Origin: Escherichia coli
GTDB lineage: Bacteria; Pseudomonadota; Gammaproteobacteria; Enterobacterales; Enterobacteriaceae
NCBI RefSeq assembly: GCF_013315695.1
Contig: NZ_CP054353.1
Direction: 5' to 3' (one strand)
Length of the DNA stretch: 64,000 bases
In this document: one piece after another, positions 1 through 3,000 of the stretch
How the letters are laid out: the number at the start of each line of letters is the position of its first letter
Position numbering within the stretch: position 1 is the stretch's first letter
Made by a program: the position numbers

Positions 1-3000
1 CTTTAACCCGTCACAACCACATCACACCTGTTTTCACTTTTATCTTCTGTCTTCAGAGGTATCCCATTATGAAAATCATCACCCGTGGTGAAGCCATGCG
101 TATTCACCAACAGCATCCTGCATCCCGTCTTTTTCCGTTCTGTACCGGCAAATACCGCTGGCACGGCAGCACTGAAACGTATACTGGTCGTGAAGTGCAG
201 GATATTCCCGGTGTGCTGGCCGTGTTTGCTGAACGCCGTAAGGACAGTTTTGGCCCGTATGTCCGGCTGATGAGCGTCACTCTGAACTGAGTCAGTAAGG
301 GCATTCTGATGAGCAGAATTATCACCTCCACCGTGTATACACTGCATGAGCTATCCTCCACCGCACAGGAAAAAGCCCGCGACTGGTACCGTCAGCATCA
401 TGCTGACAGCAACTGGTATGAAAACGTGTATGAGGACTTCAGGGAGGTCTGAGGCATTTTCGGAATTGACCTCCGCCAGCGCGTTTTCCGGCTCAGCAAC
501 GGCAGGTTTATGGAAGAGCCGTGCATCTGGTTCAGCGGATTCTGCAGCCAGGGGGACGGAGCCTGTTTTGAAGGGCGCTGGCACTGGCAGCCAGCGACAC
601 CCCGGAAAATCAGGGAATATGCCCCTCAGGACCGTGAGCTTCATCGTATCGCGGATACCCTGCATGCGGTGCAGAAACGTAACTTCTGGCAGCTTCAGGC
701 TGAAATCAGTCACCGGGGACGTTACTGCCATCCGTACAGCATGGATATCACCGTCACCCGGAACAGTCCGACTGGTCAGGCAATGACAACCGATGCGGAA
801 GCCGCTGTCAGCGAAGCCCTGCGCGACCTGGCCTTCTGGCTGTACCGCCAGCTGGAAAACAAGTACGACTGGCTGACCTCAGACACCGCTGTGGATGAGG
901 CCCTTCTCATCAACGAATATACCTTCACCGAAGCCGGTCTGCGCGCCGGCTGACCCGTCATCGTTAAACTATCATTCACCGATTTTCTGTGAGGATTTTA
1001 TCATGTCGGACACACTCCCCGGAACAACGCTTCCCGACGACAACAAAGACCGCCCCTGGTGGGGGCTGCCCTGCACCGTGACGCCCTGTTTCGGCGCCCG
1101 TCTGGTGCAGGAGGGTAACCGGTTGCATTACCTTGCAGACCGCGCCGGTATCAGGGGCCGGTTCAACAATGCGGATGCATACCATCTGGACCAGGCTTTT
1201 CCACTGCTGATGAAACAACTGGAACTCATGCTCACCAGCGGTGAACTGAATCCCCGCCATCAGCATACCGTCACGCTGTATGCGAAAGGGCTGACCTGCG
1301 ATGCCGACACCCTCGGGTCCTGTGGTTACGTTTATCTGGCTGTTTATCCTGCGACCGAAACGGAAAGTAACCCTCCGGAATAGTCTTCTGCTCCGGCCTG
1401 GTGCTTTCTCCACGCCACTTTTCCATTTCTTATATCTGCATATCAGGAAAATCTTCAGTATGAAAACATTACCCGACACACACGTACGGGCGGCATCGCG
1501 CTGCCCGTCTCCCGTCACCATCTGGCAGACACTGCTCACCCGACTGCTGGACCAGCACTATGGCCTCACGCTGAATGACACACCGTTCGCTGATGAACGT
1601 GTGATTGAGCAGCATATTGAGGCAGGGATTTCACTGTGTGACGCGGTGAACTTTCTCGTTGAAAAATACGCGCTGGTACGTACCGACCAGCCGGGATTCA
1701 GCGCAGGAGCCCCGTCGCAGTTAATCAACAGCATTGATATTCTCCGGGCTCGCAGGGCGACCGGCCTGATGACCCGGAACAATTACAGAATGGTAAATAA
1801 CATTACCCAGGGCAAGCATCCGGAGGCAAAACGATGAAACTGGCCCTGACGCTGGAAGCTGACAGCGTTAACGTACAGGCACTGAACATGGGGCGAATTG
1901 TCGTTGACGTCGATGGTGTTGAGCTTGCCGAACTGATTAACGTGGTCTGCGATAATGGCTACTCCCTTCGTGTTGTTGATGAATCTGACCGGACCTCAAC
2001 AGACAGCATACCCCCCTCTGCTGCCCTGAGCGGTATACGCTGTAGTACCGCGCATATCACGGAAACAGACAACGCCTGGCTGTACTCGCTGTCGCATCAG
2101 ACGAATGACACCGGCGAATCAGAATGGATTCATTTTACAGGTAGCGGATATCTGTTACGTACCGGTGCGTGGTCATACCCGGTTCTGCGGCTTAAACGCC
2201 TGGGGCTGTCAAAAACGTTCCGCCGTCTGGTTGTCACACTTACCCGACGTTATGGCGTCAGTCTCATTCATCTGGATGCCAGCGCTGAATGCCTGCCGGA
2301 TTTACCCACTTTCGACTGGTAACCCGGAAATTCACAACATGAAATCATTAACCACGGAAACAGCGCTGGATATTCTGATTGCGTGGCTGCAGGACAATAT
2401 TGACTGCGAATCAGGGATTATCTTCGACAACGATGAGGATAAAACGGATTCAGCAGCACTGCTGCCCTGCATTGAACAGGCCAGGGAAGATATCCGTACC
2501 CTGCGCCAACTGCAGCTTCTGCAACAGAACAGGTGAGTCTTACTCACCAGACTTTATTCCACTGACGCCAGCCTGAATACGGCTGGCGTTTTCGTTTATA
2601 AACCAAAAGGAAAAACGATGATGTCAGATATCACAATCTCCCGCCCGGAACTGGTCAACGGACATACGGACGTTATCTGCTCAACCAGTATCCGCCACAT
2701 TCTGGCTGTACGAAAGAGTGCGCTGCTGCAAATCGACACACTTATCCGGCAACTGGCTGAAATCTCGGTACTGACGGAAAGCATTGGCGGTAAAACCGCC
2801 CGGGACTGGGCCATGAAACAGGATTTTCGCTGCGGCTGCTGGCTCATGGAGAAACCGGAAACCGCAATGAAAGCCATCACCCGCAATCTCGATCGCGAAA
2901 TCTGGCGTGACCTGATGCAACGTTCCGGGATGCTGTCATTAATGGATGCGCAGGCCCATGATACATGGTACCGCTCACTGGAGTACGATAACTTTCCGGA

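What the first reader, a model, noticed from the sequence alone, without database searches (positions are those of the whole stretch)
309..953. Island ORF of unknown family interrupted by a single in-frame TGA
One reading frame is open for about 214 codons between the DUF987-like gene and cbeA, except for a TGA at 447-449; the second part carries its own Met (MEEPCIW…). An open frame this long with exactly one stop is unlikely by chance, so this is most simply a recently inactivated gene (nonsense mutation) or two fused remnants. It sits where canonical CP4-type cargo blocks have only a short spacer between the DUF987 gene and the antitoxin, so it may be an inserted or variable gene. I could not assign a family from memory.
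Basis: seen in the sequence. Interest (0 to 1): 0.45.

Follow-up and report, generated by a model that had tools for sequence, protein, structure and literature searches.

The report
Island gene killed by one stop
This is an ordinary, already-annotated pseudogene: a single T-to-A change turned a cysteine codon into a stop in a 214-codon mobile-element gene of unknown function, which is intact at the same spot in many other E. coli strains.

Summary
Frame 309-953 (+) is open for 214 codons with one internal TGA. That TGA lies at 450-452, not 447-449.

- About 2,000 of 5,426 complete E. coli genomes carry the gene between the DUF987 (yeeT-like) gene and the YeeU/CbeA antitoxin gene.
- All 13 intact copies sampled are a single 214-aa CDS with TGT (Cys48) where the window has TGA.
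- The nearest intact allele, in the same island, differs at 4 of 645 bases.
- RefSeq already annotates identical copies as a pseudogene ("internal stop"), under the names "antitoxin of toxin-antitoxin stability system" and DUF8835.
- Intact copies are under purifying selection (median dN/dS 0.26).
- An AlphaFold model (pLDDT 91) shows one compact domain spanning both halves, so neither fragment should fold.

Rejected readings: selenocysteine (no SECIS; position 48 is Ala, Cys or Gly across the family), two fused remnants, and sequencing error (37 genomes share the allele).

Side results:
- The TGA allele has moved between paralogous islands by recombination.
- K-12's short yeeT-cbeA spacer is a deletion scar of this gene.
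- The family is very large (6,397 clusters, on ICEs, plasmids and phages), uncharacterised, and has no solved structural relative.

The parts
309..953 (+). Whole pseudogene: 214 codons plus the natural stop, DUF8835 / 'antitoxin of toxin-antitoxin stability system' family, interrupted by one nonsense codon
   Evidence: Translation. Identical RefSeq copies are annotated as pseudogene 'internal stop' with exactly these limits. phrog_5162 matches residues 2-210, E=5e-36.
450..452 (+). Premature stop TGA at codon 48. The mutated base is A452; intact alleles have T (TGT, Cys).
   Evidence: All 13 intact E. coli copies compared have TGT here. A452 is the only base of the TGA alleles not seen in any intact allele.
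309..449 (+). Codons 1-47, the only part still translated from the native start. It corresponds to an N-terminal strand and most of helices 17-33 and 37-51.
   Evidence: ORF 309..452; secondary structure of the model.
453..950 (+). Codons 49-214, now untranslated from the native start. This part holds the beta-sheet core, the near-invariant SQGDGAxFxG motif (residues 80-89; Q81-A85, F87 and G89 are the near-invariant positions) and His141.
   Evidence: Alignments A1-A3; model.
510..953 (+). It is an internal methionine of the intact protein, not a separate gene start.
   Evidence: the ORF listing. Met68 aligns inside the full-length proteins. The upstream context ggcaggttt is only a weak Shine-Dalgarno-like site.
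69..290 (+). Upstream neighbour: DUF987 (YeeT-like) gene, 18 bp before the pseudogene
   Evidence: Annotation of the identical record.
1003..1383 (+). Downstream neighbour: type IV TA antitoxin gene of the YeeU/CbeA family, 49 bp after the pseudogene. It is followed by the CbtA toxin gene at 1460-1837.
   Evidence: Annotation of the identical record.

Best explanation
Window 309-953 is a pseudogene. A single T-to-A transversion at position 452 changed codon 48 of a 214-codon gene from TGT (Cys) to TGA (stop). Translation from the native start now ends after 47 residues, which is roughly two N-terminal helices. The rest of the single alpha/beta domain is not made: the beta-sheet, the family's near-invariant SQGDGAxFxG motif and His141. 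A restart at Met68 would give a 147-aa piece lacking those helices and the first beta-hairpin. Non-function of both fragments is inferred, not measured. The event is young: the TGA itself is the only base private to the TGA alleles. It is not private to this strain, because the allele circulates in 37 complete genomes and has been carried between paralogous CP4-type islands by homologous recombination.

The intact gene belongs to a very large, uncharacterised family carried by mobile elements. It is found in CP4-type islands, ICEs, conjugative plasmids and lytic phages, and is under purifying selection. From its neighbourhood alone I infer that the intact protein acts when the element enters or establishes itself in a new cell, as an anti-defence or DNA-processing accessory. 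I put about 0.4 on that inference. Nothing tested here shows that the protein is an antitoxin.
For: Shown:
- One in-frame stop in an otherwise open 214-codon frame.
- Identical or 99.7% identical copies are annotated by PGAP as pseudogene 'internal stop'.
- Eleven diverged copies plus two near-identical ones are intact 214-aa CDSs at the same position, all with TGT at codon 48.
- The nearest intact allele (WP_000086757.1), in the same island with identical DUF987, CbtA and DUF957 proteins, differs at 4 of 645 bases.
- Median dN/dS among 10 intact copies is 0.26.
- There are 2,545 homologues, nearly all about 214 aa, and 6,397 clusters at 50% identity matched end to end.
- The AF2 model has pLDDT 91.4 and pTM 0.82 and shows one domain across both halves, with residue 48 inside helix 37-51.
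- The exact 61-mer around the TGA occurs in 37 genomes from humans, birds, rivers and wastewater, so this is not a sequencing error.
- Recombination: the gene is 99.3-99.8% identical to the window in L021 and L002 while the downstream cbeA/cbtA/DUF5983 genes are only 81-93% identical. Four-gamete tests between site 452 and sites 327, 577, 665 and 937 are all positive.

Neighbourhood of the intact family:
- ArdC, DUF2958, ParB_N, DUF736, relaxase and T4CP genes in alphaproteobacterial elements.
- SSB, DUF932, RadC, RadC, then this gene, then an MbcA/RES TA pair on a Rhodobacterales plasmid.
- Blocks of small hypothetical genes in phages, and inside the terminal repeats of giant Caulobacter phages.
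Against: - No expression or protein data are available, so loss of function is inferred from the truncation and the model only.
- UGA is the leakiest stop codon, so a trace of full-length product cannot be excluded.
- The allele has persisted in 37 genomes and spread to at least three island backgrounds. That fits neutrality but would also fit selection for loss or some residual function.
- The functional inference for the intact family rests only on gene neighbourhood. There is no Pfam, NCBIfam or PADLOC model hit and no informative structural relative.
Confidence: 0.93

Rival explanations
1. The UGA encodes selenocysteine. A TGA in place of a conserved Cys codon is the classic selenoprotein signature, so the gene would be intact and make a Sec-containing protein.
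For: The TGA replaces TGT (Cys), and Cys48 is at least 90% conserved among close relatives.
Against: - The 66 nt from the UGA fold worse than shuffled sequence (MFE -12.3 against a mean of -17.6 kcal/mol, z=+2.0), with no hairpin at the SECIS position.
- There is no Rfam match.
- The downstream bases shown (453-468) are identical in intact alleles L008 and L009, so no element co-evolved with the TGA.
- Across 121 diverse members position 48 is Ala 57, Cys 42, Gly 14. It is a small residue within helix 37-51, not a redox or catalytic Cys.
Confidence: 0.01
2. The gene is still functional despite the stop. Function would come either from leaky or programmed UGA readthrough giving some full-length protein, or from the 47-aa and 147-aa pieces working as a split protein.
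For: - UGA is the leakiest stop in E. coli (established knowledge).
- An in-frame ATG (Met68) with a weak purine-rich stretch upstream exists.
- The allele has no second disabling mutation and occurs in 37 genomes and several islands.
Against: - No recoding signal or structure follows the stop.
- Natural UGA suppression in E. coli inserts Trp (established knowledge). That is a bulky residue at a position restricted to Ala, Cys or Gly.
- Residues 48-67 would be missing from a split pair, including part of helix 37-51 and the first strands 53-61.
- The absence of secondary lesions is expected for so young an allele, because the TGA is its only private base.
- In the homologue lists, full-length members match end to end as single proteins; shorter entries are partial or cut products, not paired halves.
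Confidence: 0.04
3. Loss of the gene is adaptive in these strains. The nonsense allele would have spread between islands and lineages because the intact protein is costly once the island is immobile.
For: - The same TGA occurs in two different islands of one strain (SFAD3) and on at least three haplotypes.
- The gene has been lost repeatedly by other routes: a frameshift in L015 and a ~640-bp deletion in K-12 CP4-44.
Against: - Only 37 genomes carry the TGA allele, out of about 2,000 that carry the gene.
- Intact copies show purifying selection.
- Mosaicism is general in these islands. Intact alleles are mosaic too: L004 is 90% identical in the 5' part and 99.4% in the 3' part. Neutral hitch-hiking by gene conversion is therefore sufficient.
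Confidence: 0.05
4. It is not one gene at all. It would be two fused remnants or a chance open frame, or the stop would be a sequencing or assembly error.
For: None beyond the bare presence of a stop.
Against: - The sequence is colinear, without indels, with intact 214-aa genes.
- The model is a single domain.
- Only 57 of 20,000 shuffles reach one stop or fewer.
- The identical allele is found in 37 independently assembled complete genomes.
Confidence: 0.005

Closest known systems
PGAP family 'antitoxin of toxin-antitoxin stability system' / 'DUF8835 domain-containing protein' (for example WP_000086757.1, WP_000094916.1, WP_000094915.1)
   Same: The sequence is the same gene. It is 99.4% identical at DNA level to the allele encoding WP_000086757.1 (4 of 645 bases differ), with the same length, the same position between the DUF987 and YeeU/CbeA genes, and the same island.
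   Different: The window copy has TGA instead of TGT at codon 48 and is therefore a pseudogene, as RefSeq already records for identical copies. The family name is only a label. No paper in the searched library characterises the family, and I found no similarity to any antitoxin family.
yeeT-cbeA spacer of cryptic prophage CP4-44 in E. coli K-12
   Same: It is the same gene block (RadC-like YeeS, DUF987 YeeT, CbeA, CbtA, YeeW), and it is also a decayed state of this same gene.
   Different: K-12 lost the gene through a deletion of about 640 bp. Only the first ~25 bases remain (ATGAGCAGAATTATCGCCACTACC), joined to the sequence just upstream of cbeA. The window keeps the full length with one nonsense codon.
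PHROG phrog_5162 and uncharacterised phage proteins (Pseudomonas phage Lana gp86, CcrColossus gp015, Acinetobacter phage D22 gp135)
   Same: They share full-length homology. phrog_5162 matches residues 2-210 at E=5e-36. Lana gp86 is 34% identical at E=9e-43. BFVD models match at E down to 4e-8 with TM about 0.6.
   Different: The phage members lie among small hypothetical genes without a TA pair next to them. They carry Ala at the position of Cys48. None has a known function either.
Bacterial selenoprotein genes (fdhF type: UGA plus an adjacent SECIS hairpin)
   Same: There is an in-frame UGA where relatives have Cys.
   Different: There is no SECIS-like hairpin. No element is specific to the TGA allele. 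The position is Ala, Cys or Gly across the family. It does not work like a selenoprotein gene and is not one.

Membership tests
DUF8835 / 'antitoxin of toxin-antitoxin stability system' (PGAP name) | Full-length sequence similarity to family members | tested here: met
   A sibling intact E. coli allele (L004, 97.2% identical in DNA to the window gene) finds 2,545 homologues, with the best full-length hits at E=1e-130 to 1e-144. The window gene is 91-99.5% identical in DNA to annotated members.
DUF8835 / 'antitoxin of toxin-antitoxin stability system' (PGAP name) | Match to the family's own HMM (Pfam DUF8835 or the NCBI naming model) | not testable with these tools
   The Pfam and NCBIfam copies available gave no hit at E up to 1, so they evidently lack this model. 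Membership rests on PGAP's annotation of identical DNA and on direct homology.
DUF8835 / 'antitoxin of toxin-antitoxin stability system' (PGAP name) | Single uninterrupted protein of about 214 aa | tested here: not met
   There is an internal TGA at 450-452. The locus is therefore a pseudogene of the family, not a functional member.
DUF8835 / 'antitoxin of toxin-antitoxin stability system' (PGAP name) | Near-invariant motifs: E14-L15, G52, SQGDGAxFxG (residues 80-89), H141, W177/Y179/L182, N202 | tested here: met
   All are encoded in the window sequence when it is read through the stop.
Type IV TA antitoxin, YeeU/CbeA family (PF06154) | Match to PF06154 | tested here: not met
   There is no Pfam hit for either half or for the joined protein. 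PF06154 belongs to the next gene, at 1003-1383.
Antitoxin of any described TA or defence system | Similarity to a described antitoxin or defence component, or obligatory pairing with a toxin gene | tested here: not met
   There is no PADLOC, Pfam or NCBIfam hit. A TA pair follows the gene in E. coli islands and on one Rhodobacterales plasmid. No TA pair follows it in the Mesorhizobium or Tistrella elements or in the three phage contexts examined.
Bacterial selenoprotein gene | In-frame UGA aligned with Cys in homologues | tested here: met
   TGT is present in all 13 intact E. coli copies.
Bacterial selenoprotein gene | SECIS hairpin immediately downstream of the UGA | tested here: not met
   Folding of 450-515 gives z=+2.0 against shuffles and no suitable hairpin. 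There is no Rfam match.
Bacterial selenoprotein gene | Sec/Cys position is a conserved catalytic or redox residue | tested here: not met
   Ala 57, Cys 42, Gly 14 of 121 at this position. It lies within helix 37-51.

The most novel reading that the evidence does not exclude
The stop is not simple decay. On this reading the TGA48 allele is maintained, either because loss of the protein is advantageous in immobilised islands or because the pieces or readthrough product retain a function. That would explain its copying between paralogous islands and its presence in 37 genomes from varied sources (humans, birds, rivers, wastewater) without any secondary lesion. Separately, and beyond the finding itself, the intact family is a very large group of mobile-element genes with no solved structural relative, and it may be an undescribed establishment or anti-defence factor.
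Probability: 0.07. Interest if true: 0.45.

Novelty: already known. Interest (0 to 1): 0.12.

Why it matters
As a finding it matters little. It is a routine nonsense pseudogene in a decaying CP4-type island, and RefSeq already flags it in identical genomes. Its value is as a worked example of how island cargo erodes, because the same gene is lost by nonsense, by frameshift and by deletion in different strains, and of how a dead allele spreads between paralogous islands by gene conversion. The more interesting object is the intact family. It comprises thousands of clusters across ICEs, conjugative plasmids, lytic phages and E. coli islands, stays about 60% identical between Enterobacteria and alphaproteobacteria, is under purifying selection, has a confident predicted fold without a solved relative, and carries a misleading name. 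It is a reasonable candidate for experimental study of element-establishment or anti-defence functions.

Tried and rejected
- Pfam, NCBIfam and PADLOC scans of both halves and of the joined or repaired protein gave no hit.
- The PDB sequence search with the single protein and with the profile found nothing below E=0.2.
- The afdb50 fold library was not available.
- Literature searches for the family name, for DUF8835 and for the gene block found no characterisation.
- The selenocysteine idea was tested and rejected.
- The weak PHROG hit to a Ref-like endonuclease (E=0.14) was ignored as insignificant.
- The promoter scan found one promoter-like site at 975-1004, before cbeA. The total count was not above the shuffle expectation (2 against 1.8), so I draw no conclusion about polarity on the TA pair.
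- The antisense ORF 351..731 (126 aa) is treated as the usual shadow of a GC-rich coding frame. That is an assumption: I ran no homology or coding test on it.

Full report
**1. The observation**

The region 309-953 on the + strand translates in one frame as 47 residues, a stop, 166 residues and the natural stop. The mechanical ORF list gives 309..452 (47 aa) and 510..953 (147 aa, MEEPCIW...).

The internal TGA is at 450-452.

A frame this long with one stop or fewer arises in 57 of 20,000 base shuffles of the region. The homology evidence below settles that it is a real gene.

**2. What it is**

The DNA is common in E. coli. The 645-bp query matches 2,025 of 5,426 complete genomes, at 2,948 places, almost all chromosomal.

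A record that is 99.996% identical to the window over 50 kb (NZ_OZ547117.1) annotates 309-953 as a pseudogene with an "internal stop". The product is printed there as "DUF8835 domain-containing pootine". The gene lies between a DUF987 gene (69-290) and a YeeU-family antitoxin gene (1003-1383), which is followed by CbtA, DUF5983, DUF957 and DUF4942 genes. Other records with the same allele use the name "antitoxin of toxin-antitoxin stability system", again flagged as a pseudogene with an internal stop.

Eleven diverged copies (91-97% identity) are annotated as single intact 214-aa CDSs at the same position; one of them, L010, is a 227-aa stop-loss variant. So are two copies at 99.2-99.4% identity over the gene (WP_000086757.1), which sit in the same island with identical DUF987, CbtA and DUF957 proteins. 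All 13 intact copies have TGT (Cys) where the window has TGA.

The nearest intact allele differs at 4 of 645 bases, one of which is T452A. A452 is the only base in the TGA alleles that is not seen in any intact allele.

The lesion is therefore a single nonsense transversion in an otherwise unaltered gene. "Two fused remnants" is excluded because the sequence is colinear with the intact gene and has no indels.

**3. Is the intact gene real and constrained?**

- Ten intact E. coli copies give a median pairwise dN/dS of 0.26. The pooled values are 0.43 for codons 1-47 and 0.25 for codons 49-214.
- A word-indexed search finds 2,545 homologues, nearly all about 214 aa. They come from Escherichia, Salmonella, Klebsiella and Citrobacter, and at about 60% identity from alphaproteobacteria such as Mesorhizobium, Tistrella and Stappia.
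- An exhaustive profile search finds 6,397 clusters at 50% identity (1,132 at E<=1e-30), matched end to end.
- AlphaFold2 with a 61-sequence alignment gives a confident model (pLDDT 91.4, pTM 0.82). It is one compact alpha/beta domain that runs through both halves, and residue 48 lies inside helix 37-51.
- In 121 diverse members, the near-invariant residues are E14, L15, G52, Q81-G82-D83-G84-A85, F87, G89, H141, W177, Y179, L182 and N202. Apart from E14 and L15, these lie downstream of the stop.

**4. Consequence (inferred)**

Translation stops after 47 residues. Reinitiation at Met68 would yield a fragment lacking helices 17-33 and 37-51 and the first strands. Neither piece should fold into the domain, so the gene is inactive in this strain. 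No expression data were available to confirm this.

**5. Rivals tested**

*Selenocysteine.* A TGA in place of Cys invites this idea, but three results reject it:
- The 66 nt from the UGA fold worse than shuffles (z=+2.0) and form no SECIS-like hairpin, and there is no Rfam match.
- The bases immediately downstream (shown to 468) are the same in intact alleles L008 and L009.
- Position 48 is Ala 57, Cys 42, Gly 14 across the family, and Ala in phage Lana gp86.

*Readthrough.* By established knowledge, readthrough would insert Trp at this small-residue helix position. No recoding signal is present.

*Sequencing error.* This is excluded because the exact 61-mer around the TGA occurs in 37 independent complete genomes. 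About 1,230 genomes carry the same stretch with one to three differences.

**6. History of the allele**

- Strain SFAD3 carries the same TGA in two different islands.
- In L021 and L002 the gene is 99.3-99.8% identical to the window, while the adjacent cbeA, cbtA and DUF5983 genes are only 81-93% identical.
- Four-gamete tests between site 452 and four flanking polymorphic sites are all positive.

The dead allele has therefore been moved among paralogous CP4-type islands by homologous recombination. It is young but not confined to one strain.

The gene also decays in other ways. L015 has a frameshift. In K-12 CP4-44 the 73-bp yeeT-cbeA spacer retains the gene's first ~25 bases fused to the sequence just upstream of cbeA, which is a deletion scar of about 640 bp. 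The gene is thus ancestral to the block and variably lost, not an insertion.

**7. What the intact family may do**

The context is consistently mobile-element cargo:
- ArdC, DUF2958, ParB_N, DUF736, relaxase and T4CP genes in alphaproteobacterial elements.
- SSB - DUF932 - RadC - RadC - small genes - this gene - MbcA/RES TA pair on a Rhodobacterales plasmid, the same order as the E. coli block with an unrelated TA pair.
- 110 plasmids, 41 of them predicted to be conjugative.
- Blocks of small hypothetical genes in lytic phages, and the terminal repeats of giant Caulobacter phages.

From this I infer, at about 0.4, a role during entry or establishment of the element, as an anti-defence or DNA-processing accessory. 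The PGAP name "antitoxin" is not supported by anything tested here, and no paper characterises the family.

**8. Verdict**

This is an ordinary nonsense pseudogene that public annotation of identical sequences already records, so its novelty is "already known" and its interest is low. The uncharacterised family behind it is the only part that might repay further work.

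Noticed in passing
L027 (E. coli K-12 MG1655 NC_000913.3 2077039-2077111), compared with window 299-333 and 975-1030: The 73-bp yeeT-cbeA spacer of K-12 CP4-44 still contains the first ~25 bases of this gene (ATGAGCAGAATTATCGCCACTACC) joined to the sequence just upstream of cbeA. It is a deletion scar of about 640 bp, so the gene is ancestral to CP4-type blocks.
   Followed up: yes
L021 3889-4533 and L022 3660-4304 (strain SFAD3, NZ_CP176645.1); L002 3060-3704: The same TGA48 allele sits in two different islands of one strain and in a third background (YDC107). 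Flanking TA genes are only 81-93% identical while the gene is over 99% identical, which indicates gene conversion between paralogous islands. Intact alleles are mosaic too.
   Followed up: yes
L023 1798-9803 (Pseudosulfitobacter plasmid NZ_CP086889.1): The order SSB - DUF932 - RadC - RadC - DUF6878 - small genes - DUF8835 - antitoxin - toxin mirrors the E. coli island block, but with an MbcA/RES TA pair instead of CbeA/CbtA. This is conserved block architecture across classes of bacteria.
   Followed up: partly
Phage records (for example MH588545.1 9714-10352, NC_048047.1 17132-17770): In giant Caulobacter phages the homologue lies inside the annotated terminal repeats, so it is present twice per genome. 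In other phages it lies among small hypothetical genes.
   Followed up: no
Proteins P0004-P0026, 342-343 aa: Many predicted proteins fuse this family to the downstream CbeA/YeeU domain (PF06154). They may be real stop-loss fusions or assembly or annotation artefacts. A 227-aa stop-loss variant (L010; P0023, 501 members) also exists.
   Followed up: no
window 3923-4856: An AbiEii/AbiGii-family nucleotidyltransferase toxin gene next to a DUF6088 gene (3535-3930) is frameshifted. It is a second pseudogene in the same island end. Strain SFAD3 has it intact (L022).
   Followed up: partly
window 5261-5443: An IS110-family transposase fragment (N-terminus missing) marks the island boundary just before kpsF.
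   Followed up: no
window about 5899-5905, and 42737: These are the only differences from NZ_OZ547117.1 over 50 kb: a T-run one base shorter (T6 against T7) in the intergenic region upstream of kpsF, and one SNP inside glcB.
   Followed up: partly
window 6254-50000: The rest of the window is ExPEC core and accessory DNA: the K1 (polysialic acid) capsule locus kpsFEDUCS / neu / kpsMT, the T2SS-beta gsp operon with sslE, and the glc operon.
   Followed up: no
RefSeq annotation of NZ_OZ547117.1 and others: The product name is printed as 'DUF8835 domain-containing pootine', apparently a typo that has propagated through recent annotations. Older records call intact copies merely 'hypothetical protein'.
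   Followed up: no
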